From: an uncultured Gemmatimonadales bacterium
GTDB taxonomy: Bacteria; Gemmatimonadota; Gemmatimonadetes; Gemmatimonadales; GWC2-71-9
DNA length: 64,000 nt
Reading direction: 5' to 3'
Assembly: GCA_963779755.1 (NCBI GenBank)
Contig: CAVZZO010000001.1
Coordinates: 1,728,001 to 1,792,000 of the forward strand
The notes under the pieces are model-generated. The model was not told the DNA's origin, ran no database searches, and saw only the letters and a program-made list of their open reading frames with translations. This document shows positions 43,009 to 61,344 of this stretch, piece after piece. Every line of letters starts with the position of its first letter. Within the stretch, counting starts at the first letter, position 1. Both the position numbers and the translations under genes were made by a program.

Positions 43009-43093
43009 CAGCATGCTCCCTACCATCGAGGGGAGAGGCGCATTAATTTCCGCGCGCTAGCCGCTGTCTGCTGCTCTCGATTGAGGTCTCCGA

Positions 43094-43585: not shown

Positions 43586-43646
43586 GCCGTCCCGGGGGCT
43601 GATTCCCCCCCCGAGGCAACCCGGAGGTACGGCACGACTTGCATTC

Positions 43647-43664
43647 TTGTGATTGCTTTCACAA
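43647..43664. promoter_or_regulatory. Rex-like operator TTGTGATTGCTTTCACAA upstream of the act operon
   Basis: One mismatch to TTGTGAA-N4-TTCACAA; lies between a TTGCAT -35-like and a CAAACT -10-like hexamer. Confidence 0.7.
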
Positions 43665-43744
43665 ACTTCTGCCGCCCGGCCGGGGACATCCGGTCTGGCG
43701 GCCCGGCTGTGCACTCCCAACCTTCTGCCCGGTGACCCTCGCGT

Positions 43745-44338
43745 ATGCGTAAGGCAGTCTACGTCGGCGCTGGAACTGCAGTCCTGGCGCTGACCGGGGT
43801 GTTGTTGCTCCGGCAGGACACCAGCAAGGCGCAGACGCCGGCGCCGGCGCCCACCGCGCCGGCGGCGGCCGTGATCGCCGCCGGCGACACCGCCGGCCTG
43901 CCCGGCCCGCGCCAGCCGATCTTCTTCCGCCATGATGTTCACGCCGGGCAGTACCGGATCCAGTGCCAGTACTGCCACTACTCCGTGTCCCGCTCCAAGG
44001 AGCCGGGGATCCCCTCGATGGAAACCTGCTACGGCTGCCATCTGGTGATCGGCGGCACCGACAGCTCGTCCAAGGTAGAGATCGCCAAGGTGCGGAAGGC
44101 CTGGTCGGACAAGACGCCCATCCAGTGGGTGCGGGTGCATGCGCTGGCGCGCTTCGCCCACTTCCCGCACATGCTGCACATCAAGAAGCTGGGCCCCACC
44201 GCCTGCATGACCTGCCACGGCGAGGTCTACCGCATGCCGCAGGTCTACCGGGTGAACAACATCAGCAACATGGGGTTCTGCATCACCTGCCATATCCAGC
44301 GGGACGTGAACCGCGACTGTACCGCATGCCACTACTGA
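43745..44338 (+). CDS. actA: Alternative complex III pentaheme cytochrome c
   Basis: N-terminal TM; QPIFFRHDVH; five CxxCH motifs (CQYCH, CYGCH, CMTCH, CITCH, CTACH). Confidence 0.9.
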   Translation: MRKAVYVGAGTAVLALTGVLLLRQDTSKAQTPAPAPTAPAAAVIAAGDTAGLPGPRQPIFFRHDVHAGQYRIQCQYCHYSVSRSKEPGIPSMETCYGCHLVIGGTDSSSKVEIAKVRKAWSDKTPIQWVRVHALARFAHFPHMLHIKKLGPTACMTCHGEVYRMPQVYRVNNISNMGFCITCHIQRDVNRDCTACHY

Positions 44339-44371
44339 GCCGTTCTTCCCGCCGGCGCGCGAGGATTGCCG

Positions 44372-47300: not shown

Positions 47301-47428
47301 GGATGGACCCGGACAGCCGGGTGAGCAAGGCGGCCCAGAGCCCGCGCGGGTATCACGTGCTGGAAGCGCTCAACGTACGGCCTTCGATTACGTACCTGGC
47401 GAAGGTCATCAAGCGGTCGGAGGCCTGA
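44372..47428 (+). CDS. actB: Alternative complex III Fe-S subunit (molybdopterin-oxidoreductase-like + ferredoxin domain)
   Basis: Tat motif DRRRFL; KLEGNPDHP; C-terminal CTGCSACVTAC, CQQCGNAPCEPVCP, CVGTRYCSNNCP and CTFC...CAQACP. Confidence 0.92.
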   Translation: MSDDVQPGIDRRRFLTVLGVTGAGAAAVSGCSTQRIEKLVPYLVQSEDQVPGIPTWYASTCGECSAGCGLHVKTREGRAIKLEGNPDHPVNAGTLCSMGQSSLQALYNPGRLRGPMARNASGGFDPVSWDDALKRLSAEVGKAGGRVALLTGADDGSFTDLAGEWTRALGGRLVRYQPFAHEPVRAANRLTFGLDELPAHDFARAKYILSFGADFLESWLSPVENQRGYSSSHGSGLAIMAKHVSFDPRMSLTGLNADEFYLVKPGTEAAVVLAMANVILSERSGAPADANGLRSMLAQHTPEQAQTETGVSAEVIKRVAREFASAEPGLAVAGGIGSQHRGAIELCAAVNLLNYVAGNVGRTVLFGARLASSDGYGAMTDLMAAMDAGQVGLLLVHESNPVYTVPNSAALGDKLKKVPFKVSFSMFLDETSKHCDLLLPNHHFLERWGDHRPRAGLYGLMQPVMEPVFGHKPDEAGTKDTGDVLLQVAKQAGGALSGLTAPSFEAWLRQAWTALAKQQGAADAEAFWRDALQRGGLFLPPPAPPTVRLAPGASQVSYTAPAFDGDGEFVLVAYPTVLGDGRGANRPWLRELPDPVTRITWHSWAELHPDTAARMDVRAGEILRITSPHGVIEAPAWLHPGLDPGVVAVPLGLGHSEYGEYAAGVGTTPLFLLDAKDGQGFLPYVSTRVTVEKTGGWKALASTAGSTRQLGRGVASAMPADAVGKGLTIDQYLRGEESVLAERAAEVHTLYGENPEREIPALKGFAESQHEHTKHGDYARANPQWGMVIDLAKCTGCSACVTACYAENNLPTVGESDVIRGREMSWMRIERYYEGGTGGEPFSMRVIPMLCQQCGNAPCEPVCPVYAAYHTADGLNGQVYNRCVGTRYCSNNCPFKVRYFNWFAYGLRAFPEPLNLQLNPDVTVRPRGVMEKCTFCVQRIRHAQHQAKMEDRELRDGEIITACAQACPSNAIVFGDRMDPDSRVSKAAQSPRGYHVLEALNVRPSITYLAKVIKRSEA

Positions 47429-47431
47429 TCG

Positions 47432-48783
<1,352 letters not shown>

Positions 48784-48784
<1 letters not shown>

Positions 48785-49296
48785 TGCCCAGACCAGTCTC
48801 CGGCGTCCTCGGTTCGTTCCGCCACATCGACGCCGCCACCGCCGCCATCCGGACCCTCCAGGGCCGGGGCCGGCGCGACTTCACGGTCTATTCCCCCGCG
48901 CCCAACCACGAGCTGGACGAGGCGCTGAAGCATCCGGTAAGCCCGGTCCGGGTCTTCACCCTGGTGGGCGGCATCACCGGCTGTCTGGCCGGCCTGGCGC
49001 TCACCTTCTGGACCTCGCTCGACTGGCCCCTGCTGGTGGGCGGCAAGCCGATCGCGACCATCCCGCCGTTCGTCGTCATTCTCTTCGAGCTGACGGTGCT
49101 GTGCGGCTCGCTGGTGACGGTGGCCTCCATCATCCTGCTCTCGGCCCTGAAGCCCACCCGGCGGCTCATGTTCGATCCCAGCTTCACCGACGACACCGTC
49201 GGCATCTTCGTGCCCTGCAAGCGCGAGGAGTTCCCCGCCATCGAGACCCTGCTGCGCGAGGCAGGCTCCACGGAGGTCCGGCATGAAGCGGCGTAA
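48784..49296 (+). CDS. actD: ACIII subunit D (DUF3341)
   Basis: YSPAP..., WPLLVGGKP, FELTVL, DPSFTDD; ATG overlaps the actC stop. Confidence 0.9.
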
Positions 49297-49888
49297 CCTC
49301 CGGCTGCTGGCGGCGCTGGGCTGCGTGCTGGGACTGGGTGGTTGCCAGTGGTATTACAACACCCTGCCGTCACCCGACGACCTGATGCATGCCGTCCCCT
49401 GGTTCAACGCCATGATCACCAATCCGTCGGTGGCGCCCTACGAGCGGGCCGACGTGCCCCGCTATACCCCGGAGGGCACCGTGCCCGTTACCGGCGGCCA
49501 GAAGGACTGGGGCGCCGAATGGCGGGTGGGCACCACCACCACCGCCGACAAGCTGGTCAACCCCACCAACGGCGAGGCGACCGCCCGGGGCGACACCCTC
49601 TTTCACATCTTCTGCGCCACCTGCCACGGCAACGCCGGCGCGGGCGACGGGCCGGTAGGGAAGAAGATCTTCGCCCCGGCGCTGCTCACGCCCAGGGCGC
49701 GGGCCTATACCGACGGCTATCTGTACAGCATGATCCGCTACGGACGGGGCGTGATGCCCCGCTATGGTGACAAGGTGACCCTCCAGGCCGACCGCTGGGC
49801 GATCGTGAACTACGTCCGGAAGCTGCAGGCCGCCTCGCCGCCCCAGCCGGCGGCGCAGACGCAGCCGTCGGGAGGACAGCCGCGATGA
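49283..49888 (+). CDS. actE: ACIII monoheme cytochrome c lipoprotein
   Basis: Lipobox LGGC, PEGTVP, CATCHG, GRGVMP, DRWAIVNYVRKLQ. Confidence 0.9.
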   Translation: MKRRNLRLLAALGCVLGLGGCQWYYNTLPSPDDLMHAVPWFNAMITNPSVAPYERADVPRYTPEGTVPVTGGQKDWGAEWRVGTTTTADKLVNPTNGEATARGDTLFHIFCATCHGNAGAGDGPVGKKIFAPALLTPRARAYTDGYLYSMIRYGRGVMPRYGDKVTLQADRWAIVNYVRKLQAASPPQPAAQTQPSGGQPR

Positions 49889-51207
49889 GCCTGGCAAGCA
49901 TCCGGGAGCGCCTGCTGGCGCAGCCCGTGGGCGGGCGCTTCAACGCCGTGCTCTGGATCGGCATCGTGCTCTCCGTGGTCGGGGTGCCGCTCACGGTGAT
50001 CGAGCTGCTGGGCCCCAACGCCGACCGCGCCTGGCAGCTCTTCCACGTCAACTGGATCTACTTTACCGGGCTGGCTCTGGGGTCGGTGGCGGTGGTAGCC
50101 GTCCACAAGGTGGCCAACGCCAAGTGGTCCGGCTTCGTGCTCCGCTTCGCGGCGCCGCCGGTGTACTTCCTGCCCCTGTCGTTCATCGGCCTGCTGCTGA
50201 TCTTCGGCCCCGGGTATCACCATATCTATCCGGTGATGCACGATCTTTTCCCCGGCAAGGCGATCTGGCTTACCCGCTGGGTCATGTTCGTGCGGCTGGC
50301 GGTGACGCTGCTGGTGCTCTTCGTCCTGGCCTTCCTGCTGATCCGGACCGACCTGGTTCCCGATCTGCACGCCATCCGGTCCCGGGTGGACGAGGCCCGC
50401 CGGCGTCGCTGGGATAAACTCATCGGCAAGTACGACGGCTCCGAAGCGGCGGAACGGGAGAACTTCCGGCGAGTCCGCCGGTTCGCGCCCATCTTCCTGA
50501 TGTTCTACGCCTTCGTCATGACCCTGGTGGCGTTCGACGGCACCATGGCGCTGCAGCCCCACTGGTTCAGCAACCTGCTGGGCGGGTTCTACTTCATGGG
50601 GGCGTTCCTGGGCGCCAACATGATGCTGGCCATCATGCTGAATTACGGGCGCTACCAGCTCGGCATCCCCGATCTGGTGAGCCCCAAGCAGCGGCACGAT
50701 CAGGGCAAGCTCTGCTTCGGCTTCACCGTGTTCTGGGCTTACCTCATGTGGTCTCAGTTCATCGTGATCTGGTACGGCAACCTGCCGGAAGAGACCGGGT
50801 TCCTCTTCGCCCGGCTGTGGGGCCCCTGGATGCCGGTGGCGCGCGCGGTGTTCGCCGGCATCTTCGTGCTGCCGTTCTTCGGCCTGCTGGGGGTGGCGCC
50901 CAAGAAGTTCCCGCCCACCATGATGTTCTTTGCCTCCATCAGCCTGATCGCGCTGTGGCTGGAGCGTTACCTGCTCATCATGCCGTCGGTCACCCACGAA
51001 TCAGGCCCGATCCTCGGCCTGGCCGAGGCGGCGCCCACCCTGGCCTTCGCGGGCCTGTTCCTGCTCTGCTATGCCCTGTTCGCCCGGAGCTATCCCATGG
51101 TGAGTCCGCGCCTGGCGGAAATCACCGTGCGGCAGGAAATGGGGCACCACCTCGAAGCGTTCGAGCATACCGAAGGGCCGCAGGACTACATTCCCGAGGC
51201 GCGGTAG
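49885..51207 (+). CDS. actF: ACIII membrane subunit F
   Basis: Polytopic protein; MALQPHWFS, HDQGKLCFGF, FWAYLMWSQFIVIWYGNLPEET. Confidence 0.9.
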   Translation: MSLASIRERLLAQPVGGRFNAVLWIGIVLSVVGVPLTVIELLGPNADRAWQLFHVNWIYFTGLALGSVAVVAVHKVANAKWSGFVLRFAAPPVYFLPLSFIGLLLIFGPGYHHIYPVMHDLFPGKAIWLTRWVMFVRLAVTLLVLFVLAFLLIRTDLVPDLHAIRSRVDEARRRRWDKLIGKYDGSEAAERENFRRVRRFAPIFLMFYAFVMTLVAFDGTMALQPHWFSNLLGGFYFMGAFLGANMMLAIMLNYGRYQLGIPDLVSPKQRHDQGKLCFGFTVFWAYLMWSQFIVIWYGNLPEETGFLFARLWGPWMPVARAVFAGIFVLPFFGLLGVAPKKFPPTMMFFASISLIALWLERYLLIMPSVTHESGPILGLAEAAPTLAFAGLFLLCYALFARSYPMVSPRLAEITVRQEMGHHLEAFEHTEGPQDYIPEAR

Positions 51208-51389: not shown

Positions 51390-52424
51390 CTAACGATCCG
51401 GCATCGGCAGGGGCAGGCGGTTGAGCAGGGCGCGGAGTGAATCCACCGGTACCCGTCCGGTGACCGCCACCATGCGGTTGCCGTGCCGCATGGCCATGTA
51501 GGTGTCGGCTGCCGCGTCGGCCGGCGTCCGGCCCTGGCTGCTCAGCAGGTCGGTGACCCGGTCTGCCGGCCCCTCGATGGTGCGGATGAACTCGCCGCTG
51601 GCCAGCTGCTGGTCGACCGCGACGATCTTCTCGTGGGGTGAGAGCCGCTGGACCTTGACCTGGATGACGGGCAGCCCCTGCACCCGGGCCAGCGGCGCTC
51701 CGGATTCCTGCTCGGCCGCCGCGACCGAAAAGAGCAGCCAGAGGCCCGTGTCCTGGTCCTGGCCGGCGAGGCCGGCATCGCTGCCCTGTTGGGCCTGCGC
51801 TTCACCCGCTCCCGAATCGGGACGCGAGAGCGGCAGCGGCGCCACCGCAACCGTGGTTTCGATGCTGGCGGGACGCACGGGGAGATTGTCGCCCGAGGGG
51901 CGGGGCGTGGTGCGCGCCTGATGGCGGGGTGGCGGCGCCGGGGCCGGGGCCGGCTTCTCCTGCCGCGCCACCTGCCGGCTGGTGCTCGAGTCGGCCAGCC
52001 GAACCCGGGTGTTGGCCGTGTCGCCCCCCAGGCTGTCCTGGCCGGCGCCAACCGGCTGCAGGGTGGCGGCGACCCGGGAGGTCGCCGGCCCGGGGCCGGT
52101 CCCGGTATCATGCCAGGTGTGGGCGGTCCAGCCCAGCCCCAGAGCGACCAGGATGCTGGCGGCCCACCACCCCCAGCGGGGGCGGCGGCGCGCACCGGCG
52201 GCCGCCGCACGGCGGCGCAGCTCTTCGAAATCGGGCGGAAAGACCGCCGGCGGGGCCAGTTTGGCCAGCAGGGCGGTGGTGCGGTCGCGCAGGCCGGCGA
52301 TGGCATCCCGGAGGTCGCGGCAGTGGTCGCAGGAGGCGAGATGGCGCTCGATCTCCACGCACTGGGAACGGCTCAGTGCCTGGTCCAGATAGGCGTGCAG
52401 CTCTTCCTCAGGAATGTGCCGCAT
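51390..52424 (-). CDS. Zinc-binding (ZAS, zf-HC2) transmembrane anti-sigma factor
   Basis: HIPEEELHAYLD...HLASCDHC motif; TM WAASILVALGLGW; overlaps the sigma gene end. Confidence 0.88.
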   Translation of the reverse strand: MRHIPEEELHAYLDQALSRSQCVEIERHLASCDHCRDLRDAIAGLRDRTTALLAKLAPPAVFPPDFEELRRRAAAAGARRRPRWGWWAASILVALGLGWTAHTWHDTGTGPGPATSRVAATLQPVGAGQDSLGGDTANTRVRLADSSTSRQVARQEKPAPAPAPPPRHQARTTPRPSGDNLPVRPASIETTVAVAPLPLSRPDSGAGEAQAQQGSDAGLAGQDQDTGLWLLFSVAAAEQESGAPLARVQGLPVIQVKVQRLSPHEKIVAVDQQLASGEFIRTIEGPADRVTDLLSSQGRTPADAAADTYMAMRHGNRMVAVTGRVPVDSLRALLNRLPLPMPDR

Positions 52425-52920
52425 GGTCCCTGTGCTCTTCACGGTCGTGGGCCTCTACCAGCCGGCGGCGGGCCCGGGCGAGCGTCGTACCGACCGCGCC
52501 CACCGCCAGGCCGGTCTGCTGAGCGATCTCGGGGTAGCTCAGGCCCGCGTCCCACAGGAGCAGCACCTCGCGGTCGCGGGCCGAAAGGAGATCCAGGGCC
52601 CGCTGTACCTTGGCCAACTTTTCGTCGTGCTCGACCAGATCATCCGGCGCCGGCGGGCTTCCCGGCAGCACGCCGGTATCGGACTTGAGCAGGGTCAGAT
52701 GCCGTTTCCGCCGCACCGCCGCCCGGGCCTCGTCCCGCGCCAGGTTGGCCGCCACGGCGAAGACCCACGCCCGGGGCTTCTCCGGCTGGTGCGTCATGGC
52801 CCGCAGGAAGACCTCCTGCGCCAGGTCCTGGGCACGATCGGCATCCCATACTTTGCGATAGAGGAATCGCACTACCGCCGAGTAGGTCGTGCGGTATAGT
52901 GACTCCAGATCGTCGCTCAC
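52408..52920 (-). CDS. ECF RNA polymerase sigma factor
   Basis: AQDLAQEVF, WVFAVAANLARD (region 2); LSARDREVLLL...GLSYPEIA...GAVGTTLARARRRL (region 4). GGAG precedes GTG 52920. Confidence 0.92.
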   Translation of the reverse strand: MSDDLESLYRTTYSAVVRFLYRKVWDADRAQDLAQEVFLRAMTHQPEKPRAWVFAVAANLARDEARAAVRRKRHLTLLKSDTGVLPGSPPAPDDLVEHDEKLAKVQRALDLLSARDREVLLLWDAGLSYPEIAQQTGLAVGAVGTTLARARRRLVEAHDREEHRDHAAHS

Positions 52921-52994
52921 ATGGGCTCCTTCCGCCGGGGACCTTCGTTCGAAGCTGGCCATTCTGCCGCCTGCGTCCAGATCCTGCCCCACGG

Positions 52995-53792
52995 CTAGTT
53001 GACGCCGGCCACCGATCCGGTTGCACAGCCGGTGCTTGCGGCGCGCCGTCGCCGGCCGGCAAAGACACAGCCGGGGTGCAACCCCTTGCCCTTGGGCGGC
53101 CAGTCGCTGCAGAGGTCGGGCTTGGCGGGGCGGCCGTCGGCGCGGGTCCGGCCGTGGAGGCTGCAGGCCCCCTCTTCATCAAGATAGCCGCAGGCGGAAA
53201 TCATCTCCGCCTCGATGGAGAAGTCCCCCTCCCGGGATACCTTGCACAGGTAGGGCGACTTGCGGGCGAATACCAGCCGTTCCAGGAGGACTTCCTTTCT
53301 GGTGCACATGATCTCGACCTGCAGATCCCGGCAGCAGGCGGAACCCCTGGTGTTGTCGGCGGTCCGGCAGGGCGCATCCTGACAGGGGTTATCCTCCTGG
53401 AGGACCGGCAGCGCCCGCCGCGGTTGATCCAGGTCGCGCCGGACCAGGCGCTGGTGGTCGACCACCCGGAAGGACCGGAGGCCCAGCCGGCGGGGCTGCT
53501 CCCGGGTGGCGCGCTGGCGCGGCATGTCGCCGGTGAAGCCATGGGCTCGGCAGCGGGCGCCGGGGCCTTCCCGGGCCAGATGCTTGCATGGGACGTGGAG
53601 CACAGCCTCGACGTATAGATCCTCTCCATCGTTCCACGGGTCGCCGAAGGTGATGTGCTGGGTGTGCCCCAGGAGCCACGTCGCCTCATGATCCAGCGAC
53701 GCCTCCCCCTCTTCCAGGCTGCCGATACGGAGGGTTACCCGGAGCGAACGGCAATCGGCCCCGAGGGCGGTACAGGCGGGCAAGCTGGGCAT
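52995..53792 (-). CDS. Cys-rich hypothetical protein with two YkgJ-like (Zn/Fe-S) modules
   Basis: HVPCKHL...CRAHG and PC..APC...ACCRDL...ACGYLDEEGACSLHG...KPDLCSDWP motifs. Confidence 0.65.
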   Translation of the reverse strand: MPSLPACTALGADCRSLRVTLRIGSLEEGEASLDHEATWLLGHTQHITFGDPWNDGEDLYVEAVLHVPCKHLAREGPGARCRAHGFTGDMPRQRATREQPRRLGLRSFRVVDHQRLVRRDLDQPRRALPVLQEDNPCQDAPCRTADNTRGSACCRDLQVEIMCTRKEVLLERLVFARKSPYLCKVSREGDFSIEAEMISACGYLDEEGACSLHGRTRADGRPAKPDLCSDWPPKGKGLHPGCVFAGRRRRAASTGCATGSVAGVN

Positions 53793-53828
53793 GGCGAAAA
53801 CTGGCGAAATTGCGGGGGGGGATTATAC

Positions 53829-53846
53829 TTGTGAACTCATTCACAA
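53829..53846. promoter_or_regulatory. Perfect Rex-consensus operator TTGTGAACTCATTCACAA
   Basis: Exact match to TTGTGAA-N4-TTCACAA in a divergent promoter region; overlaps a TATACT hexamer. Confidence 0.75.
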
Positions 53847-53911
53847 GCGGATTTCTGTTCGACTGCAGTCATAGCCACAACAATCTTAACGATCCCGGAG
53901 GTCTGACAGCA

Positions 53912-54397
53912 ATGCGCACCAGCTTACTGATGGCAGGAGCAGCTCTTCTTCTGGCCGCCTGCGGCGGCGGCGAGAAGCCGGCGAACCAGCAGACGGCAGT
54001 GGACACGACCGCCACTACCCCGCCCGCGGTGGCCGGCACCACGACGGCGAACGCGACCGGCACGGTCCATGACGTCAACATGGAGCTGAACGGGTCGACG
54101 TACGAGTACACCCCCGCGAACCTGACCATCAAGCCGGGCGATGCCGTGCGGTTCCATAACGTGAGCGGCGGCCCCCACAACGTCGAGTTCTATCCGGACA
54201 GCATTCCGGCCGGCGCCGCCGACGTGCTGAACAACAACATGCCCGACCGCACCGGCCCGCTGGCGGGCCCGCTGCTGGTGGAGCCCAACGCGACCTACAC
54301 CATTTCCTTCGCGGGCGCCCCCGAGGGCGAGTACAAGTTCTACTGCCTGCCGCACCATGCGCTGGGGATGAAGGGGACGATCGAGGTGGAGGAGTAG
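53912..54397 (+). CDS. Type-1 blue copper lipoprotein (plastocyanin/halocyanin/auracyanin-like)
   Basis: GGAGG RBS; lipobox LAAC; Thr/Ala linker; Cu ligands GPHNV and YCLPHHALGM. Confidence 0.93.
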   Translation: MRTSLLMAGAALLLAACGGGEKPANQQTAVDTTATTPPAVAGTTTANATGTVHDVNMELNGSTYEYTPANLTIKPGDAVRFHNVSGGPHNVEFYPDSIPAGAADVLNNNMPDRTGPLAGPLLVEPNATYTISFAGAPEGEYKFYCLPHHALGMKGTIEVEE

Positions 54398-54552
54398 GAA
54401 GCAGGACGGAATAGGACGGAATAGGACGGGAAAAAGACGGGAGGAAGACGGGAGAGTCCGTTATCCTCCCGTCCTGTCTTCGTCCTCATTCCGTCCTGTC
54501 TTCGTCCTTTCCCGTCCTGTTCCCGTCTCTCTCCCGTCTTTCTCCTGCTTTC
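54398..54552. repeat. Mirrored 10-11-bp GACGG(G)A repeats between convergent genes
   Basis: aggacggaataggacggaataggacgggaaaaagacggg... then tcccgtcctgtcttcgtcc... Confidence 0.85.
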
Positions 54553-55451
54553 TATCGCAACGGCCGCCCCAGCACTCTCCACCCGCTCCCGACCTCCAGC
54601 CAGCGCACTGCGGCTACGACGCCCGCGCCGGTCGCCAGCCCCGCCAGCGCGTCCACGCCGTAGTGCATCTGGCAGTAGACCACGCCGACGGTGAGCAGGA
54701 CGGTCGGCAACAGCAGGATGGCGCCGAGGCGGCGTGAGCCGAGCCACCCGGCCAGGGTCGCGGCCACGGTGGCCGCGACGTGGGAAGAAGGGAAGGCGGC
54801 GCCGTAGGAGCTGCCCTCGGCCAGCGTGGCGTACACCAGCCGCGCCGGCAGATTGGCCACGAAGCTCCCCGTGGGGTGGGGGAACGCGTAATAGGGGCCG
54901 GCGACGGGGAAGAGCAGGAAGGCGCTATAGCACACGACGAAGGTGGCCATCACCATGAGCACGGCCCGCCGGAGCGCGCGCAGGTCCCGCCGCCAGGCGA
55001 ACCAGGCCGGCGGCAGGGGGATGATCAGATAGTAGGAGAAGTAGGCCGCGTGCAGCACGGTGGACCAGAAGCGGCTGGGGTGGCTCTGCCACCAGGTGCG
55101 GCTGATCTGGGTGCCGAAGGCGGCGGTTTCCCAGTGCTGAATGAGCGCATCGTGTACGTGCACCAGGTCGACCCCGTTCAGCAGGTCGAGCTGGCTGTAG
55201 AGACTGACCAGCAGCAGCAGCGGATAGATCTCGTGCAACGCCACCCCCGCCGGCCCCAGCTCCCGGCGGGTGAAGAGGAAAATCAGGACGACGATGAGCA
55301 GGTTGGACAGCAGGACCCAGGGAGCCAGCGGCCGGGTGCCCAGCCGCGCCAGGGCGACTACCGAAACCAGCACCAGATAGGCCAGCAGCACCAGGTCCAC
55401 GGCGAGCAGCCGCGCGGCGGCCTCACCGGTGGGAGTACGGCTCAGAGCCAT
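54552..55451 (-). CDS. PAP2-superfamily membrane protein, AUR1/inositol-phosphorylceramide-synthase-like
   Basis: Multi-TM; YFSYY, FPVAGP, AAFPSSHVA and HYGVDALAG (His-His-Asp triad). Confidence 0.8.
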   Translation of the reverse strand: MALSRTPTGEAAARLLAVDLVLLAYLVLVSVVALARLGTRPLAPWVLLSNLLIVVLIFLFTRRELGPAGVALHEIYPLLLLVSLYSQLDLLNGVDLVHVHDALIQHWETAAFGTQISRTWWQSHPSRFWSTVLHAAYFSYYLIIPLPPAWFAWRRDLRALRRAVLMVMATFVVCYSAFLLFPVAGPYYAFPHPTGSFVANLPARLVYATLAEGSSYGAAFPSSHVAATVAATLAGWLGSRRLGAILLLPTVLLTVGVVYCQMHYGVDALAGLATGAGVVAAVRWLEVGSGWRVLGRPLR

Positions 55452-56404
55452 CCGGCGGCGCGATACCAGGCCAGGGTCTCGCGCAGGCCGCCCTCGAGGT
55501 CGTAAGCCGCCCGCCAGCCGGTGTCGCGGGTGAGCGACGCCGGATCGCAGGTCCAGGCTGTCTGGAAGAACTCGTTGGCCTTGTCGGCGGTGAGCAGGGT
55601 GCGGCGGCCGGCCAGCCGGGCGGCGGCGCCGGTGATGCCCAGAATACCGCGGCCCAGCGGCTCGGGCACCGGCAGCAGCAGGACGCGGCGCTCCATGACG
55701 CGGCCGATGGCCCGGGCCAGCTCCCCGCTGGTGGTCTGGTCCGGGTGCGCGGGGTAGTAGATCCTGCCGGGCGGGGCGCCGACCGCGGCGAGGAACGCCA
55801 GCACCAGGTCGGGCGCGTAGATGGCCGAGAGGCGCTGGTCTCCCCGGCCGAAGACCGGCACCAGCCCGGTGCGGGCCAGCTGAAAGATCTTGAGGACCTC
55901 GCGGTCGCGGGGACCGTAGACCGTGGGGGGGCGGAGAATGGTCCAGGGGAGGGGCCCGGTGCGCACCACTTCCTCGGCGGCGAGCTTGCTGCGGCCGTAG
56001 GCGCTGACGGGCGCCGGGGGCTCGTCGCCGGCGCGCGGTGCGCCAGCAGTGGCCGGCCCGGCGGCCGCCAGGGTGGAAACCAGCACGAAGCGCTCCACAC
56101 CCGCCCCGGCCGCGGCCTGGAGCAGGCGGGCGGTGCCCTCGCGGTTCACCCGATAGAACTCGGCCTCATCCAGCGCGGCCACCAGGGCGGCGGAGTGAAA
56201 GACCACGTCCTGCCCGGCGGCTGCCTCCCGCAACGCGCTTTCATTATCAAGGTCGCCCTGGATGGTGCGGACGTCGGGCGCGAAGAGGGCGGCGGCCCGC
56301 TCCGGCGAGCGGACCAGCGCGGTGACGCGGTCGCCGCGGCGGCGGAGGGCTTCGACCAGATGGCTCCCGACGAACCCGGTGCCGCCGGTCACCAGGACCT
56401 TCAT
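55442..56404 (-). CDS. Extended SDR NAD(P)-dependent reductase; candidate ceramide/3-ketosphinganine reductase
   Basis: VTGGTGFVG, YGRSK, RPPTVYGP; ATGA overlap with the upstream gene; true start 56404. Confidence 0.85.
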   Translation of the reverse strand: MKVLVTGGTGFVGSHLVEALRRRGDRVTALVRSPERAAALFAPDVRTIQGDLDNESALREAAAGQDVVFHSAALVAALDEAEFYRVNREGTARLLQAAAGAGVERFVLVSTLAAAGPATAGAPRAGDEPPAPVSAYGRSKLAAEEVVRTGPLPWTILRPPTVYGPRDREVLKIFQLARTGLVPVFGRGDQRLSAIYAPDLVLAFLAAVGAPPGRIYYPAHPDQTTSGELARAIGRVMERRVLLLPVPEPLGRGILGITGAAARLAGRRTLLTADKANEFFQTAWTCDPASLTRDTGWRAAYDLEGGLRETLAWYRAAGWL

Positions 56405-57537
56405 AGGGGCCGGTCGTAGAGGCGATAGGTCTTGTACACCGAGAAGCCCATCTTGACCAGGCCGGCGTTCATGGCCGGGTTGTCTTCCAGGATCCAGCCG
56501 GCCTCTCCCCAGCCGATGCCACGCTCGGTACCGCGGGACCAGATCCAATGATAGAGCATGGCGTCGATGCCCTTGCCCCGGTGCTCCGGCAGCACGCCCA
56601 GTAGCAGGATCCGCAGCCGGGTAAACCGCTTCATCTTGAGCCACCAGAGCAGCCGGAAGATGACCGGTAGCAGGCGGCCGTTGCGGTTGGTGCGGAACAC
56701 CTGGTTCAGGTCGGGCAGGGCAAGGGCAAAGCCGATCACCTGGCCGTCCTTCTCCGCCATGGGCACCAGGTCGGGCACCACCACCGGCCTGAACTGCCTG
56801 GCCAGGTGGTCGATCTCGTGTTCGGTCATGGGGACGAAGCCCCAGTTCTTCTCCCAGGCAGCGTTGTACAGCTCCTTCACCCGCTCCACCTCGGCGGTGA
56901 ACTGGCGCATGTCGAGCGCCCGCAGCGTGACGCCCTGCCGTTCGCCGATGAGCTGCACCGCGCGGGTGAGGCGCTCGGGTACCGGTGGCAGGTCGTGCTC
57001 GTCGCCGTTCTGGTAGACCAGCAGGTCCCGTGCTTTGGCGAACCCGGCCCGTTCCAGCAGGGCGGCATAATAGGGCGGGTTGTGCGGCATCATCAGGGTG
57101 GGCGGCGTGTCGAAGCCGTCCACCAGCAGGCCGCACTCGTCGTTCACCGAGAACGATGCGGGGCCGCGCAGGGTATCGTGCCCCCGTGCGCGGCACCAGG
57201 CGGCGGCCGCGTCGAGCAGCGCGTCCGCCGTGTCCTGGTCGTCGATGCATTCGAAGAAGCCGAAGAACCCTGCCCGGTCCTGGTGGGTTTCGTTGTGCAG
57301 CCGGTTACTGATGCCGGCGACGCGGCCCACCACCTTGCTGCCCCGGAGGGCGAGGTAGTACTCGGCCTCGCCATGCTCGAAGAAGGGATTCTTCCGGCGG
57401 GACAGCAGCGTACGGACGTCCTGACGCAACGGCGGGACCCAGAGCGGGTCCCGCGCGTGCAGCCGATACGGAAGATCGACGAAGCGGTCGAGGTCGCGGG
57501 CGCCGGTGACCGCCCGGACGAGGACCCCGGCCGTCAG
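56401..57537 (-). CDS. GNAT-fold acyltransferase of the bacterial ceramide synthase (bCerS/YghO-like) family
   Basis: DPLWVPPL, GFFGFFEC, GLLVDGFD..P.LMMPHNPPYY, WGFVPMTE, LPDLNQ, WILEDN, YKTYRLY. Start inferred at a CTG overlapping the spt stop. Confidence 0.8.
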   Translation of the reverse strand: MTAGVLVRAVTGARDLDRFVDLPYRLHARDPLWVPPLRQDVRTLLSRRKNPFFEHGEAEYYLALRGSKVVGRVAGISNRLHNETHQDRAGFFGFFECIDDQDTADALLDAAAAWCRARGHDTLRGPASFSVNDECGLLVDGFDTPPTLMMPHNPPYYAALLERAGFAKARDLLVYQNGDEHDLPPVPERLTRAVQLIGERQGVTLRALDMRQFTAEVERVKELYNAAWEKNWGFVPMTEHEIDHLARQFRPVVVPDLVPMAEKDGQVIGFALALPDLNQVFRTNRNGRLLPVIFRLLWWLKMKRFTRLRILLLGVLPEHRGKGIDAMLYHWIWSRGTERGIGWGEAGWILEDNPAMNAGLVKMGFSVYKTYRLYDRPL

Positions 57538-58739
57538 ATGACCCCCAGCTCCCGTCCGATCCTGGCAAAGGTGTCCAGACAGTAGTCGATCTGATCGAAC
57601 GTGTGGGTCGCCATCAGGCTGGTCCGCAGGCGGCAGGCCGAGGCCGGCACGGCCGGCGGGGCGACCGGGTTGGTGAAGACCCCGGCGTCGAACAGCTTGC
57701 GCCACATGATGAAGGTCTTCTCCAGCGGCCCGATCAGTACCGGGACGATGGGCGTCTGGGTGGGGCCGATCTCGAAGCCCAGGCTGCGGAAGCCCTCGTG
57801 CAGGCGGCGGGTGTTGGCCCACAACCGTTCACGCCGCTCGACTTCCACCTGCAGCGCCTCCAGCGCCGCCAGCACGCCGGCCGTGTTCGCCGGCGGCAGG
57901 GAAGCGGTGAAGATGAGGGGCCGGCTGTGGTGGCGCAGGTAGTGAATGACGCTCTCGGTGGCCGCTACGAACCCGCCGATGGAGGCGAGCGACTTGGAGA
58001 AGGTGCCGGCGATGATATCGACCTCGTCGGTCAGGCCGAAGTGCGCCGCGGTGCCGTCGCCGTTGGGGCCGAGGACCCCGATGGCATGCGCGTCGTCCAG
58101 TGCCAGGGCGACGCCGAAGCGCCGCGCCAGCCGGACCAGGCCCGGCACGTCGGCGATGTCGCCTTCCATGCTGTAGACGCCGTCCACCACCACCATGGCG
58201 CCGCGGCCGGAGCGTTCCCGTTCCAGCTTGCGCTGCAGGCTGTTCAGGTCGCCGTGGTTGAAGCGTTCGGTCTCGCCGTAGGAGAGCTTGGCGCCGTCCA
58301 CGATGGAGGCGTGGTCGAGCTTGTCGAGATAGACGACGTCGCCCCGGCCCACCAGGCCGCTGATCAGGCCCAGGTTGGCGGAATACCCGGTGGAGAACAC
58401 CAGGCAGTCTTCCTTGCCCAGAAACTCGGCCAGGGAACGCTCCAATTGGCCGTGCAGGTCGATCGTCCCGTTCAGGAAACGGCTGCCGGTGCAGCCGGAG
58501 CCGTAGCGCAGCAGGGCCCGCTGGGCCGCTTCCAGCACCTTGGGGTGATGGGTGAGCCCCAGATAATTGTTGGAGCCCAGCATGATGCGCTTCTGCCCTT
58601 CAATGACGACGACCGTGTCCTCGGACTCGGAAATCGGCTTGAAGTAGGGATAGAGCCCCGCCGCCTGCACTTCGCGCGCTTTGGTGAACTGCTTGCACTT
58701 GTCGAACAGCGCGACCTGTTGGAGCGTTTGGGTGTCCAC
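57534..58739 (-). CDS. spt: Alpha-oxoamine synthase, probable serine palmitoyltransferase
   Basis: GLYPYF, GSNNYLGL, GCTGSRFLNGT, DHASIVDG, DGVYSMEGD, DDAH, GTFSKS (PLP Lys); operon context favours SPT over BioF/Kbl. Confidence 0.8.
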   Translation of the reverse strand: MDTQTLQQVALFDKCKQFTKAREVQAAGLYPYFKPISESEDTVVVIEGQKRIMLGSNNYLGLTHHPKVLEAAQRALLRYGSGCTGSRFLNGTIDLHGQLERSLAEFLGKEDCLVFSTGYSANLGLISGLVGRGDVVYLDKLDHASIVDGAKLSYGETERFNHGDLNSLQRKLERERSGRGAMVVVDGVYSMEGDIADVPGLVRLARRFGVALALDDAHAIGVLGPNGDGTAAHFGLTDEVDIIAGTFSKSLASIGGFVAATESVIHYLRHHSRPLIFTASLPPANTAGVLAALEALQVEVERRERLWANTRRLHEGFRSLGFEIGPTQTPIVPVLIGPLEKTFIMWRKLFDAGVFTNPVAPPAVPASACRLRTSLMATHTFDQIDYCLDTFARIGRELGVI

Positions 58740-58991
58740 AGTACCTCGATGTTAACGGGGACCCGACGGCAGGTGCTCGCCAGTCCGGTGGCTGAAATGG
58801 CTGCATGATTTTAGCGCCTGGCCCCTGACGGCACAAGGGTTTACGCCGTTTCCGGCCGGCTGTTCGGGGCCCGGATTCCATGGCACCTCACCAGAGTATT
58901 CTGGCCTTTCGCGAACTCCATCCGGGGCCGGTGTCCATGCGGCAGCGTCCGGGACGTCTAAGTCCATGTCACAAAAGTCACGAGGCCGTCG

Positions 58992-59017
58992 GGAACTTCC
59001 GGGCACGGTAGTACGTT
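58992..59017 (+). promoter_or_regulatory. ECF-sigma-like promoter GGAAC-N17-CGTT upstream of the M6 protease
   Basis: ggaacttccgggcacggtagtacgtt, about 48 bp before ATG 59065. Confidence 0.4.
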
Positions 59018-59064
59018 TCTTGCTTGGCAGCCGGCTTTATATCCTTTTTCGGCAGGGTTCAGGA

Positions 59065-61344
59065 ATGGGTCGTCACGCGAGGTGGGCCCCCGCGCTCGTC
59101 ATCGGGCTGGTGCTGTTTTCGGCGGGGCCGGCCTTGGCCCAGCATCGGGCGGAGCCCGGGCGCTTCGAGGTGCCCTGGCTGGATTTCCGGCCCGACGGTG
59201 CCTGGCGGAAGCACGCCAACGCAGTCCGGGACAATCGCCGGCTGCTGTTGAGCGCCGGGGCCATCGGGGCGGTGAACGGCGCCGCCGCGGTAACCGGCGA
59301 CTACAAGATCCCGGTGGTGCTGTTCAACTTCAGCAACCGGATCAACGCGTTTACCCCCACCGATTACAGCAACCTGTTCTTCAGCCCGACGCCCACGCCG
59401 CCCGCCGGCCAGTACCGGCCCTACACCCTGAAGACCTTCTACGAGCAGCTCTCCAACGGCAACATCACGGTGGACGGGTCGGTCTTCGGACCGGTGCCGG
59501 CCGATTCGGTGGATACCTTTTATGAGGACGGGTGCGACGGCATCGGGGTGACGCCGCAGGGCGCACCCACGACATGCGGCACTCCGCTGCAGGGGAGCGG
59601 GGTCTCGGCCAACTTCCGCGATCTGCTGGTCGAAGTGATCGGCAAGGTGGACAACGGCTCGATCGACTGGAGCCAGTTCGATCACGACGGCGACGGCTTG
59701 GTGGATTTCATCACCTTCATTCAGCCCGAGGTCGACGGCGCCTGCCAGACGACCAACCTCTGGGCGCACCGGTTCAGCCTGCAGGGACTCGGCGACTCGC
59801 CCATCCCCACCCAGACCCCCTGGCCGGGGCACAGCGGCCAGTTCATCAAGATCAACGACTACATCATCCAGAGCGGCCAGGGCGGCGACGGCTCCTGCAC
59901 CGCGGGGGAGATCATGCCGGTAGGCACCGTCGCGCACGAGACCGGCCACGCCTTCGGCCTGCCGGACTTGTATGATACGGAGCCCGCCAGCGGGACCGAG
60001 GGGATCGGGGAGTGGGGGCTCATGGGGAGCGGCAACTACGCCCGTCCCTATAGTCCCAGCCGCATGGAGGCCTGGTCGCTGGCCCAGCTGGGCTGGGTAA
60101 CCGTGGACACGCTCTCGGCCAGCGGGCAGGTGACCATCAACCCGGTCTCCAGTTCCGACACGGTCTGGTATGTTCCCACCGCACGCGCCGGCGATTATTT
60201 CCTGCTGGAGAACCGCGATTCGCTGGCGTCGGACACCGCGCAGATGAACTCGGCTTTCTCCACCCGCAAGAAGTCGCCCGGGCTGCTCATCTGGCATATC
60301 GACGATGCCCGGGTTGCCCAGGGCACTGTTTTGGGGCAGAACTCCGTCAACACCGGCGCGATCCAGGGCGTTGCCCTGGAACAGGCCGACGGCCTCAACC
60401 AGTTGCGCACCGCCAACCTGGGCAACCGGGGCGACATCGGCGACAGTTATCCCGGCAGCACGGGGAACTCCAGTTTCACTTTCTCGTCCAATCCGCAGGC
60501 GGCGGATAACACCGGCGCCTATGCCGGGTTCATCATCGACAGCATCACCCGGCACGCCTCGGGCGTGCCCGGGGTCGCAAGCCCCATGACGCTCTACTAC
60601 CTGCTGCGCGGCCTGTCGCTCATCGCGCCGGACGCCAACCACGCCAGCGCGCAGGTCAAGGTCAACGGCGTGTCGACCGCCCGGTATGCCAACGCCATCG
60701 CGCCGGGCGAAACGGTGAATCTCTCGGTCACCAGCCCGCAGACGGCCAATGCCGGCCGTTCGGAGTTCACCTTCCTTTCCTGGAGCGACGGCGGGGCCAG
60801 CAGCCACAGTTTCGTTTCCAGCGTGGCCGGTCCCGACACCGTGATCGCCACCTTCACGGCCCGTCACAAGGTGACGCTGACCTCCACACCGGTGGGCGGG
60901 ACGGTGACGTCCGATCTGGCGGTGCCGCTCGACACCCTGGTCGCCGGGACGTTCGTGCAGGAGAATACGCCGGTGACGCTGTCCGCCGCGGCCGATGCCA
61001 ATTTCCTGTTCACCGGCTGGACCGGCGACACCAGCACCGGCAACGCCACCGTGGTGCTCCCCATGGGGCGCCCCTACGCCGTGACGGCGCAGTTCACCGC
61101 CACGGTGGTAGTGGCCTCGGACGATGCCGCCAACGATCTGCTCACCAACCGCGGCTGCGGCTGTCTCACCACCACCCAGCGGAGCTTTCTGGACCAGGCG
61201 GGCAACCACAACGGCGTCTACGACCTGGGCGACTTCCTGGCCTACGCCAACCGGTCCGGTCTCAATCCTTCGTCGCCCGCCATGCAGCGGGTGCTTTCCC
61301 GCCTGGGCGCCGGCACGCCGGCCGCGGCGCGAAAGGAGCGCTGA
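59065..61344 (+). CDS. Secreted M6 (immune inhibitor A-like) metalloprotease with beta-repeat domains and a dockerin-like C-terminus
   Basis: Signal peptide; FDHDGDGLVD, LWAHR, AHETGHAFGLPDLYD, GEWGLMGSG, YFLLENR, GLLIWHID, LEQADG; FTGWTGD repeat; terminal EF-hand-like GNHNGVYDLGDF. Confidence 0.9.
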   Translation: MGRHARWAPALVIGLVLFSAGPALAQHRAEPGRFEVPWLDFRPDGAWRKHANAVRDNRRLLLSAGAIGAVNGAAAVTGDYKIPVVLFNFSNRINAFTPTDYSNLFFSPTPTPPAGQYRPYTLKTFYEQLSNGNITVDGSVFGPVPADSVDTFYEDGCDGIGVTPQGAPTTCGTPLQGSGVSANFRDLLVEVIGKVDNGSIDWSQFDHDGDGLVDFITFIQPEVDGACQTTNLWAHRFSLQGLGDSPIPTQTPWPGHSGQFIKINDYIIQSGQGGDGSCTAGEIMPVGTVAHETGHAFGLPDLYDTEPASGTEGIGEWGLMGSGNYARPYSPSRMEAWSLAQLGWVTVDTLSASGQVTINPVSSSDTVWYVPTARAGDYFLLENRDSLASDTAQMNSAFSTRKKSPGLLIWHIDDARVAQGTVLGQNSVNTGAIQGVALEQADGLNQLRTANLGNRGDIGDSYPGSTGNSSFTFSSNPQAADNTGAYAGFIIDSITRHASGVPGVASPMTLYYLLRGLSLIAPDANHASAQVKVNGVSTARYANAIAPGETVNLSVTSPQTANAGRSEFTFLSWSDGGASSHSFVSSVAGPDTVIATFTARHKVTLTSTPVGGTVTSDLAVPLDTLVAGTFVQENTPVTLSAAADANFLFTGWTGDTSTGNATVVLPMGRPYAVTAQFTATVVVASDDAANDLLTNRGCGCLTTTQRSFLDQAGNHNGVYDLGDFLAYANRSGLNPSSPAMQRVLSRLGAGTPAAARKER

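What the first reader, a model, noticed from the sequence alone, without database searches (positions are those of the whole stretch)
54552..58739. Four-gene putative sphingolipid operon ending in an AUR1/IPC-synthase-like enzyme
Seen: four overlapping minus-strand genes encoding an alpha-oxoamine synthase with GTFSKS, a GNAT of the bCerS/YghO type, an extended SDR and a PAP2-type polytopic protein with FPSSH...HYxxD. Known: Caulobacter makes ceramide with Spt, a GNAT ceramide synthase (bCerS) and an SDR reductase (CerR); fungal AUR1 and sphingomyelin synthases use the same His-His-Asp triad to move a phospho-head group from a glycerophospholipid to ceramide. Inference: this organism makes ceramide and adds a head group by a eukaryote-like phosphotransfer. 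That would differ from the kinase/CDP-alcohol routes I know of in Caulobacter and Bacteroides, and I know of no sphingolipid characterisation in this probable lineage.
Basis: partly seen in the sequence, partly recalled or inferred. Interest (0 to 1): 0.82.

Follow-up and report, generated by a model that had tools for sequence, protein, structure and literature searches.

The report
Ceramide operon with candidate ethanolamine-phosphate transferase
Four overlapping genes in an uncultured Gemmatimonadales bacterium match the known bacterial ceramide-making enzymes plus a membrane enzyme that likely adds a phosphate-linked head group; a relative of that enzyme sits beside the likely ceramide reductase gene in gut Bacteroides, where it is a candidate for an ethanolamine-phosphoceramide synthase that I found no report of.

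Summary
In detail: four overlapping minus-strand genes (Spt-like, bCerS/YghO-like GNAT, CerR-like SDR, PAP2_3) lie in a Gemmatimonadales genome. The first three are reciprocal best matches of ceramide-cluster genes from E. coli BL21, Sphingomonas and Roseomonas, and the synthase trees with Spt, apart from BioF/Kbl. The fourth folds most like yeast Aur1, keeps an invariant His-His-Asp triad and lacks phosphatase Lys/Arg residues. It occurs only in bCerS-positive genomes (64 of 64), adjacent in 58.

But this gene is not of the BT_1522 type. It belongs to a sister subfamily whose Bacteroidales members follow a CerR-like gene. That makes the subfamily a candidate for the bacterial ethanolamine-phosphoceramide synthase, for which I found no report.

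Odds: ceramide about 0.88; head-group transferase about 0.75. Head group: ethanolamine 0.4, inositol 0.3, other 0.15, no transfer 0.15. No lipid has been measured. This scan noted the same operon on at least nine other genomes.

The parts
57534..58739 (-). Serine palmitoyltransferase-like alpha-oxoamine synthase (Spt), 401 aa, GTFSKS PLP-lysine motif
   Evidence: Best PDB match is Sphingobacterium-type SPT 8guh/3a2b at 421 bits, against at most 287 for Kbl/AONS. Best NCBIfam model SerpalmtaseCFB, 524 bits, below its 640 cut-off. Trees with Spt rows apart from BioF/Kbl, 100/99. The genome's second AOS is Kbl, over cut-off, beside a zinc dehydrogenase.
56401..57537 (-). bCerS/YghO-type GNAT N-acyltransferase, 378 aa, probable CTG start overlapping the spt stop
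   Evidence: Full-length 35-42% identity to E. coli BL21 YghO and to the GNATs of Sphingomonas, Roseomonas, Streptomyces and Rubrobacter spt clusters; each has this gene as its only hit in the genome. Start codon inferred.
55442..56404 (-). CerR-like extended SDR, 320 aa, no signal peptide (Rossmann motif begins at residue 1)
   Evidence: Best hit in the genome for all 5 spt-cluster SDRs tested. Falls in the SDR clade holding all spt-locus SDRs (92/99), which also holds 2 other SDRs of this genome.
54552..55451 (-). PAP2_3 polytopic enzyme, 299 aa, about 8 predicted TM helices, triad H224/H263/D267; predicted ceramide phospho-head-group transferase of a subfamily distinct from BT_1522/Aur1
   Evidence: Triad invariant in 28 of 28 aligned sequences. 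Model pLDDT 91.7. Best fold match Aur1 9ivc/9vj4, Z 18.1/18.0, rmsd 4.4/4.0, 263/256 residues aligned, against LpxE Z 15.6 over 162. 0 of 121 family members carry KxxxxxxRP or the C3 Arg, while the genome's 3 other PAP2s all do.

Best explanation
These four overlapping genes likely make (dihydro)ceramide by the known bacterial Spt-bCerS-CerR route and then likely add a phosphate-linked head group, most probably phosphoethanolamine, taken from a glycerophospholipid. Step by step, all inferred from homology and none assayed: Spt condenses serine with a long acyl-thioester to 3-ketosphinganine; the GNAT N-acylates it; the SDR reduces the 3-keto group, probably in the cytoplasm since it has no signal peptide. 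The PAP2_3 enzyme, with its active site predicted to face the periplasm, attacks the phosphodiester of a phospholipid with His263 (activated by Asp267), releases diacylglycerol, and passes the phospho-head group to the ceramide 1-OH activated by His224, as proposed for Aur1. Odds: ceramide 0.88; transferase given ceramide 0.85. Head group overall: ethanolamine 0.4, inositol 0.3, glycerol/choline/mixed 0.15, no transfer 0.15. The confidence figure is for 'ceramide plus phospho-head-group transfer'.
For: Core genes: reciprocal best hits to spt-cluster genes of E. coli BL21, Sphingomonas, Roseomonas, Streptomyces and Rubrobacter; tree; PDB.
Fourth gene tied to ceramide: in 121 Gemmatimonadota genomes (G000 included) the family is found in 64, all 64 bCerS-positive and 0 of 45 bCerS-negative; it is within 1.4 kb downstream of bCerS in 58 of 64. 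Within family f2: 3 of 5 versus 0 of 23 (Fisher p 0.003; kin are not independent).
Head-group slot: where spt loci lack it, other head-group modules sit there: GT4 glycosyltransferases (G037, G074, G115; with an LPG_synthase_TM gene in G074 and G115), or CDP-alcohol/NTP-transferase/aminotransferase genes (G102, G130).
Transferase, not phosphatase: whole-length fold match to Aur1; no C1 Lys/Arg or C3 Arg in 121 of 121; a canonical PAP2 lies divergently upstream of spt in 10 loci.
For ethanolamine: the Bacteroidales reciprocal best hit lies directly after a CerR-like SDR in Prevotella sp. oral taxon 299 and B. finegoldii. Prevotella has a separate BT_1522-type gene in a PgpA-GtrA-CDP-alcohol cluster. 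All tested Bacteroides make PE-DHC (PMC10191378, passage); a BLAST search with the Drosophila enzyme found no EPC synthase in B. thetaiotaomicron (PMC8791184, passage). The residue before the catalytic His is Met/Phe/Ile in 14/13/1 of 28, like Phe252 of trypanosome EPC/SM synthases and unlike Ser of their IPC synthases (PMC11796370, passage) or His of Aur1. The genome has psd and a neighbouring pssA-like gene.
Against: No lipid or enzyme data. The AOS misses the curated cut-off of all three NCBIfam Spt models. Caulobacter bCerS and CerR themselves could not be obtained; I compared syntenic homologues instead. The SDR clade also holds 2 unrelated SDRs of this genome.
Against ethanolamine: psd was not found in 6 of the 64 PAP2_3-positive genomes, including all 5 of family f6, three of them in 1-3 contigs. 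MIPS is found in 63 of 64. The Bacteroidales homologues are only about 27% identical, and the branch joining them to the Gemmatimonadota proteins is weak (80/46). The His-1 rule comes from the SMS-type family and may not transfer. The Bacteroidales SDR is CerR only by homology. No flippase, ACP or acyl-ACP synthetase gene is in the operon.
Confidence: 0.72

Rival explanations
1. Same operon and same chemistry, but the fourth enzyme is an inositol-phosphoceramide synthase using phosphatidylinositol (or PIP) made by the genome's PIP-synthase/MIPS pair, as the first reader and one earlier scan note guessed.
For: A CDP-alcohol phosphatidyltransferase and MIPS lie side by side at C1:1831499-1833504, about 40 kb beyond the window. 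MIPS is found in 63 of 64 PAP2_3-positive genomes. Of 3 bCerS-positive genomes without MIPS, 2 (G068, G115) also lack the PAP2_3 gene (Fisher p 0.06). All 5 f6 genomes have MIPS and no psd found. Best fold match is Aur1.
Against: MIPS is found in 113 of 121 genomes of the phylum regardless of ceramide genes. G060 (99% complete, 140 contigs) has the operon and no MIPS found. The IPCS1 and IPCS2 motifs are in 0 of 121 members. The family profile does not hit Aur1 at E 1, whereas the Prevotella BT_1522-type protein hits it at 2e-19. Aur1 is the only PAP2_3-type entry among the listed fold matches, so the fold cannot name the donor. No PgpA-type PIP phosphatase was found in the genome.
Confidence: 0.3
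2. The fourth enzyme is a hydrolase: a lipid phosphate phosphatase (ceramide-1-phosphate, PIP or PGP) or a phospholipase C-like enzyme for turnover. The operon then makes plain ceramide and any head group is added elsewhere.
For: It shares the LPT fold and triad with LpxE, PgpB and G6PC (Z 13-15.6). Databases name it 'membrane-associated phospholipid phosphatase'. SMSr is reported to act as a PE phospholipase C (search listing only). G068 and G126 have the three core genes without it.
Against: 0 of 121 members have the phosphate-binding C1 Lys/Arg or C3 Arg, while all 3 other PAP2s of the genome do. Phosphatases align over only about 160-190 residues, Aur1 over about 260. Its slot is swapped for glycosyltransferase or CDP-alcohol modules in other spt loci.
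Confidence: 0.15
3. The AOS uses another amino acid (alanine, glycine, cysteate) or the product is a non-ceramide amino-lipid, so the operon makes a deoxy-ceramide or sulfonolipid-like compound.
For: Below cut-off for all three Spt models; forms its own Gemmatimonadota clade with unresolved placement among Spts.
Against: Scores 421 bits to a Sphingobacterium-type SPT and 241 to cysteate acyltransferase. It is co-transcribed with an enzyme that needs a 1-hydroxyl acceptor, which alanine or glycine products lack (inference). It has the same gene order as the Streptomyces and Rubrobacter spt-cerS-cerR loci.
Confidence: 0.1

Closest known systems
Bacterial ceramide pathway Spt / bCerS / CerR of Caulobacter crescentus (CC_1162, CC_1154, CC_1164; PMC11087976 parts 1-2 of 4 read; PMC11324152 passages) and B. 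fragilis (BF9343_4218, BF9343_4240 knock-outs; bioRxiv 10.1101/2023.05.23.541633 passages)
   Same: Same three enzyme families, full-length homology and reciprocal best hits to the syntenic E. coli BL21, Sphingomonas and Roseomonas genes.
   Different: One compact coupled operon without acpR, aasR or lptF2/G2. The Spt is closer to the Bacteroidota type. The head group is set by a PAP2_3 enzyme, not by the kinase/CDP-alcohol genes of the Caulobacter-type cluster. The SDR has no signal peptide, whereas Caulobacter CerR is reported periplasmic.
Bacteroides thetaiotaomicron BT_1522 PI-dihydroceramide (IPC) synthase (PMC9246714, PMC8791184; passages)
   Same: PAP2_3 family, His-His-Asp triad, no phosphatase Lys/Arg; a bacterial Aur1-like head-group transfer is therefore already known.
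   Different: BT_1522-type proteins (identified here by their PgpA-GtrA-CDP-alcohol cluster in Prevotella, Hymenobacter, Spirosoma) have PAAPPW, PSLH, HHY and mostly GLxRxD, and hit Aur1 by sequence. This protein has PVAGP, PSSH and QMHY, its family profile scores the Prevotella BT_1522-type protein at only 21 bits, and it is separated by a long branch (2.21, 100/100). It is linked to cerR, not to inositol genes.
Saccharomyces Aur1 IPC synthase (PDB 9vj4, 9ivc; PMC13133130 section 11 read, other passages)
   Same: Best structural match over the whole protein (Z 18, about 260 residues, rmsd 4.0-4.4), about 8 TM helices, kinked TM4, triad in register (H255/H294/D298 = H224/H263/D267 by motif).
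   Different: 16-18% identity; no sequence-level hit; H293 replaced by Met; IPCS1 and IPCS2 motifs absent; no Kei1 partner sought.
Uncharacterised Bacteroidales 'SDR + PAP2 family protein' pair (B. finegoldii UHF62_RS05330/05335; Prevotella sp. oral taxon 299)
   Same: Reciprocal best hits of the window's SDR and PAP2_3 in the same order; shared AFPSSH and VYxQxHY motifs.
   Different: Not next to spt or cerS; 27-31% identity; I found no functional study.

Membership tests
Bacterial serine palmitoyltransferase | Groups with Spt, not BioF/Kbl | tested here: met
   15 Spt-side rows split from 5 BioF/Kbl rows at 100/99; HemA not in the tree. PDB ranking SPT 421 > Kbl/AONS 287 > ALAS 198 bits. The AU test did not finish.
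Bacterial serine palmitoyltransferase | Passes a curated NCBIfam Spt cut-off | tested here: not met
   NF047600 524/640, NF047599 416/500, NF047603 352/670. The models are lineage-specific; the Rubrobacter, Streptomyces and Aureispira operon proteins also miss.
Bacterial serine palmitoyltransferase | Condenses L-serine with acyl-CoA/ACP | not testable with these tools
   Needs an assay.
bCerS (YghO-type GNAT) | Full-length homology and reciprocal best hit to spt-cluster GNATs | tested here: met
   35-42% over 371-386 aa, E below 1e-76; sole genome hit for 5 of 5 references. The Caulobacter protein itself was not available.
CerR (extended SDR) | Best match to spt-cluster reductases; NAD(P) and YxxxK motifs | tested here: met
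   Best genome hit for 5 of 5 references; motifs.
CerR (extended SDR) | Monophyly with CerRs to the exclusion of other SDRs | tested here: inconclusive
   The clade at 92/99 is internally unresolved and includes 2 other SDRs of this genome.
LPT / complex sphingolipid synthases | His (C2) plus HxxxD (C3) triad; H-X3-D-X3-[GA]-X3-[GSTA]; more than 3 TM helices (criteria of PMC11402645) | tested here: met
   Triad invariant in 28 of 28; motif in 119 of 121; about 8 TM helices in the model.
Canonical PAP2 lipid phosphate phosphatase | C1 KxxxxxxRP and C3 SRxxxxxHxxxD (motifs recalled; checked on internal controls) | tested here: not met
   0 of 121 members; 3 of 3 other PAP2s of the genome have both, and 11 of 11 canonical neighbours have C1.
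Aur1 / BT_1522 IPC synthases | Whole-protein fold | tested here: met
   Z 18.1, rmsd 4.4, 263 aligned to 9ivc; Foldseek E 1.6e-4.
Aur1 / BT_1522 IPC synthases | IPCS1 (W-x2-Y-x3-H-x3-P) and IPCS2 (G-L-x-R-x-D) motifs; sequence-level homology to Aur1 | tested here: not met
   0 of 121 for each motif (an H-x2-Y-x3-Y look-alike occupies the IPCS1 place). No Aur1 hit at E 1, against 2e-19 for a BT_1522-type control.
Aur1 / BT_1522 IPC synthases | Transfers phosphoinositol from PI to ceramide | not testable with these tools
   Needs an assay.

The most novel reading that the evidence does not exclude
The fourth gene defines a bacterial PAP2_3 subfamily, separate from BT_1522/Aur1 and kept next to the ceramide reductase gene in both Gemmatimonadota and Bacteroidales, that is the missing bacterial ceramide-phosphoethanolamine (PE-DHC/EPC) synthase: the enzyme for a major sphingolipid of gut Bacteroides. 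It would also make several Gemmatimonadota families producers of phosphosphingolipids.
Probability: 0.38. Interest if true: 0.72.

Novelty: new variant of a known kind. Interest (0 to 1): 0.52.

Why it matters
The ceramide core is known chemistry, and an Aur1-like head-group enzyme is known in Bacteroides, so the operon alone is a solid but unsurprising extension to a phylum. I found no paper joining Gemmatimonad*, ceramide and serine palmitoyltransferase (0 papers; none of the 30 listed of 87 on topic by title or abstract start). The paper that surveyed the pathway across bacteria (not held) and the Black Sea supplement (unreadable) may already list this phylum.

The useful point is the fourth gene. 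It names one gene, directly after the CerR-like SDR in Bacteroidales, whose deletion would test whether it makes PE-dihydroceramide. All tested Bacteroides make that lipid, and I found no report of its synthase. It also predicts base-stable phosphosphingolipids from uncultured Gemmatimonadales. The operon is mostly not found in family f2 (bCerS in 5 of 28).

Tried and rejected
- 'New route unlike Bacteroides': rejected after reading passages of PMC9246714 and PMC8791184.
- 'Orthologue of BT_1522/Aur1': rejected on motifs, profile scores and tree.
- BioF/Kbl identity of the AOS: rejected. The AU test did not finish and was not rerun.
- Single-sequence PDB search with the PAP2 protein gave only chance opioid-receptor hits; the GNAT profile gave only weak N-acetyltransferase hits. 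tblastn of the PAP2 protein against plasmids: no match.
- ESM Atlas: only PAP2_3 clusters (Gemmatimonadota, Acidobacteriota, Actinomycetota), no function.
- Homologue searches gave thousands of unnamed relatives but no characterised member among those listed; names for the distant ones could not be looked up.
- Metagenome loci were fetched but not analysed.
- Donor profiling did not settle the head group.
- No sigma-70 promoter or minus-strand terminator match. No RNA holder listed.
- bCerS was not found on the B. finegoldii record that carries the SDR-PAP2 pair, so that SDR is CerR by homology only.
- The locus tags BT_3075/3074/3032 were recalled and used only as search terms; they gave nothing relevant.
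- No complex prediction was run.
Full report
Observation. The four ORFs are present as described, on the minus strand: AOS 58739-57534, GNAT 57537-56401, SDR 56404-55442, PAP2_3 55451-54552. They overlap by 4, 4 and 10 nt. The GNAT most likely starts at CTG: residues invariant in 26 aligned sequences lie before the first downstream canonical start, and 7 of 26 relatives show the same. The window is G000:C1:1728001-1792000, a 97% complete genome in 4 contigs. Of the 80 closest PAP2 relatives, 79 carry Gemmatimonadota titles, mostly Gemmatimonadales; one is titled Bacillota.

Core pathway. The AOS matches Sphingobacterium-type SPT structures best (421 bits; other bacterial SPTs 309-313; Kbl/AONS at most 287). 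Its best NCBIfam model is the Bacteroidota Spt, but at 524 it misses the 640 cut-off, as do the operon AOSs of Rubrobacter, Streptomyces and Aureispira. In a 20-row tree it falls with the Spts, apart from BioF and Kbl (100/99); HemA was not included. The genome's only other AOS is Kbl. I could not obtain the Caulobacter proteins, so I used syntenic clusters from E. coli BL21(DE3), Roseomonas marmotae, Sphingomonas parapaucimobilis, Rubrobacter and Streptomyces. All 15 reference proteins have the window gene as best hit in this genome; identities are 42-51% (Spt), 35-42% (bCerS) and 31-41% (CerR). The SDR tree is less resolved. The functions of these families come from Caulobacter (PMC11087976, parts 1-2 of 4 read; PMC11324152, passages) and B. 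fragilis knock-outs (bioRxiv 10.1101/2023.05.23.541633, passages). The genome keeps lpxC, so sphingolipid would accompany LPS rather than replace it (inference).

Conservation. The four-gene order holds in 22 of 31 loci fetched from relatives. Of the other nine, two lack the PAP2 gene at the locus, three lack bCerS at the locus and four are cut by contig ends. It holds in 67 of 80 genome loci found through the PAP2 protein; the other 13 are truncated. In an even sample of 121 Gemmatimonadota genomes at least 90% complete (G000 included), Spt was found in 69, bCerS in 76 and the PAP2_3 family in 64. All 64 are bCerS-positive, none of the 45 bCerS-negative genomes has it, and 58 of 64 have it within 1.4 kb downstream of bCerS. 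By family, for bCerS and PAP2_3: f1 54 and 51 of 55; f6 5 and 5 of 5; f2 5 and 3 of 28. Kin are not independent. Twelve bCerS-positive genomes lack it; of the three in f1, one is a contig end (G114) and two lack it at an intact locus (G068, G126). At several such loci other head-group genes occupy the neighbourhood: GT4 glycosyltransferases in G037, G074 and G115, the last two with an LPG_synthase_TM gene. G102 and G130, whose PAP2_3 lies elsewhere, have CDP-alcohol transferase, NTP transferase, aminotransferase or HAD genes there. This reads as an interchangeable head-group slot (inference).

The fourth enzyme. H224, H263 and D267 are invariant in 28 of 28 sequences. The model (pLDDT 91.7) has about eight membrane helices. 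Its best matches are the two Aur1 structures over nearly the whole chain (Z 18.1 and 18.0; rmsd 4.4 and 4.0; 263 and 256 residues), ahead of LpxE (15.6; 162), G6PC1, PgpB and SMSr (11.2). None of 121 family members (1 of 122 dropped as lacking the motifs) has the C1 KxxxxxxRP or the C3 arginine of monoester phosphatases (motifs recalled), while the genome's three other PAP2s have both. In 10 loci a canonical PAP2 lies divergently upstream of spt. Charge distribution is weakly consistent with a periplasm-facing active site. The two-step phospho-histidine mechanism is taken from Aur1 (PMC13133130, section 11 read).

B. thetaiotaomicron BT_1522 was found by homology to AUR1, and its deletion removes PI-dihydroceramide while leaving PE-DHC (PMC9246714, PMC8791184; passages). 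So Aur1-type transfer in bacteria is known. But the window protein is not of that type. Prevotella sp. oral taxon 299 has two PAP2_3 genes over the Pfam cut-off. One sits in a PgpA-GtrA-CDP-alcohol cluster like BT_1522-1525, has PSLH, HHY and GLxRxD, hits Aur1 at 2e-19 and scores 21 bits on our family profile. The other has AFPSSH and VYIQAHY, scores 135 bits, has no PDB hit, and lies 6 nt after an extended SDR that is 31% identical to the window SDR over its length. The same SDR-PAP2 pair overlaps in Bacteroides finegoldii; a Phocaeicola homologue lies at a record's edge, so its neighbour is unseen. Both genes of the pair are reciprocal best hits with the window genes, and the SDRs group with the Aureispira spt-locus SDR (97/94). 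In the PAP2 tree the BT_1522 type is set off by a long branch (100/100), while the union of the Bacteroidales 'after-SDR' proteins with the Gemmatimonadota proteins is only weakly supported (80/46). This rests on two full Bacteroidales loci only.

Which head group. The genome can make all three usual donors: a PIP-synthase-like gene plus MIPS at C1:1831499-1833504, psd with a pssA-like neighbour, and a pgsA-like gene. For ethanolamine: the Bacteroidales counterpart is a second, ceramide-linked PAP2_3 in a group where all tested Bacteroides make PE-DHC (PMC10191378, passage), and no EPC synthase was found there by BLAST with the Drosophila enzyme; residual IPC in the BT1522 mutant was ascribed to an unknown enzyme. 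The residue before the catalytic His is Met, Phe or Ile here, like Phe252 of trypanosome EPC/SM synthases and unlike Ser in their IPC synthases (PMC11796370, passage). Against it, psd was not found in 6 of 64 family-positive genomes, including all five of f6. For inositol: MIPS in 63 of 64, and 2 of 3 ceramide-positive genomes without MIPS also lack this gene (p 0.06). Against it, MIPS is near-universal in the phylum (113 of 121), G060 has the operon without MIPS found, and the IPC-synthase motifs are absent. Since single residues switch donors in related enzymes, the head group may differ between lineages. I put ethanolamine at 0.4, inositol 0.3, other 0.15, no transfer 0.15.

Novelty. I found no paper linking Gemmatimonadota to Spt and ceramide and none naming a bacterial CPE synthase (listings only). 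PMC11334938 (section 20 and passages read) extends Spt-like genes to 38-40 phyla; its main text does not name this phylum and its supplement could not be read. The original pathway survey is not held. Either may list Gemmatimonadota. This scan already noted the same operon on at least nine other genomes; those are unchecked notes, not support. None of the few lines shown from them mentions the split from BT_1522 or the Bacteroidales SDR-PAP2 pair.

Verdict. A real, conserved ceramide operon of a known kind, ending in an uncharacterised transferase-type PAP2_3 subfamily. New variant of a known kind; interest 0.52. The bolder reading, that this subfamily is the bacterial PE-ceramide synthase, has probability about 0.38 and is testable by one knock-out in B. 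thetaiotaomicron.

Noticed in passing
L264:4009-5972 (B. finegoldii NZ_OY725910.1) and L259:4192-6201 (Prevotella sp. oral taxon 299): CerR-like SDR followed directly by a PAP2_3 of the window's subfamily; candidate PE-dihydroceramide synthase of Bacteroidales.
   Followed up: partly
L051:7500-9505 (G000:C1:1831499-1833504): CDP-alcohol phosphatidyltransferase and myo-inositol-phosphate synthase side by side. MIPS is found in 113 of 121 Gemmatimonadota genomes, so inositol lipids may be a phylum-wide trait; no PgpA was found in this genome.
   Followed up: partly
L169:3207-8687, L170:1957-8667, L037:1339-7487: spt-cerS(-cerR) loci of G115, G074 and G037 carry GT4 glycosyltransferases (with LPG_synthase_TM in two) instead of the PAP2_3: candidate glycosphingolipid variants.
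   Followed up: partly
L273:245-8917 and L274:4488-11623: spt-cerS-cerR loci of G102 and G130 flanked by CDP-alcohol transferase or NTP transferase, class-III aminotransferase, Gfo/Idh oxidoreductase or HAD: a third, unexplained head-group module.
   Followed up: no
family f6 genomes G079, G094, G100, G104, G118: Phosphatidylserine decarboxylase not found in 5 of 5 although it is found in 111 of 121 genomes; they keep the four-gene operon and MIPS.
   Followed up: no
L022, L023, L026, L028-L030, L032-L035, upstream of spt: A canonical PAP2 phosphatase gene lies divergently upstream of spt in 10 loci; role unknown (PIP or ceramide-phosphate phosphatase?).
   Followed up: no
window 57537-57535: Probable CTG start codon for the bCerS gene, fused to the spt stop as CTGA; CTG or TTG stands at this place in 25 of 26 relatives.
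   Followed up: partly
L138:5698-11290 (Rubrobacter radiotolerans plasmid 1): spt-cerS-cerR followed by an LTA-synthase-family gene, another possible phospho-head-group transferase, in an actinobacterium.
   Followed up: no
window 43000-51207 and 52408-54397: Alternative complex III operon (ActD, cytochrome c genes); ECF sigma/anti-sigma pair, a Cys-rich ORF without Pfam match (52995-53792) and a plastocyanin-like lipoprotein, syntenic with the operon in many relatives; an M6 peptidase lies upstream (58966-61344). They look like neighbours only.
   Followed up: no
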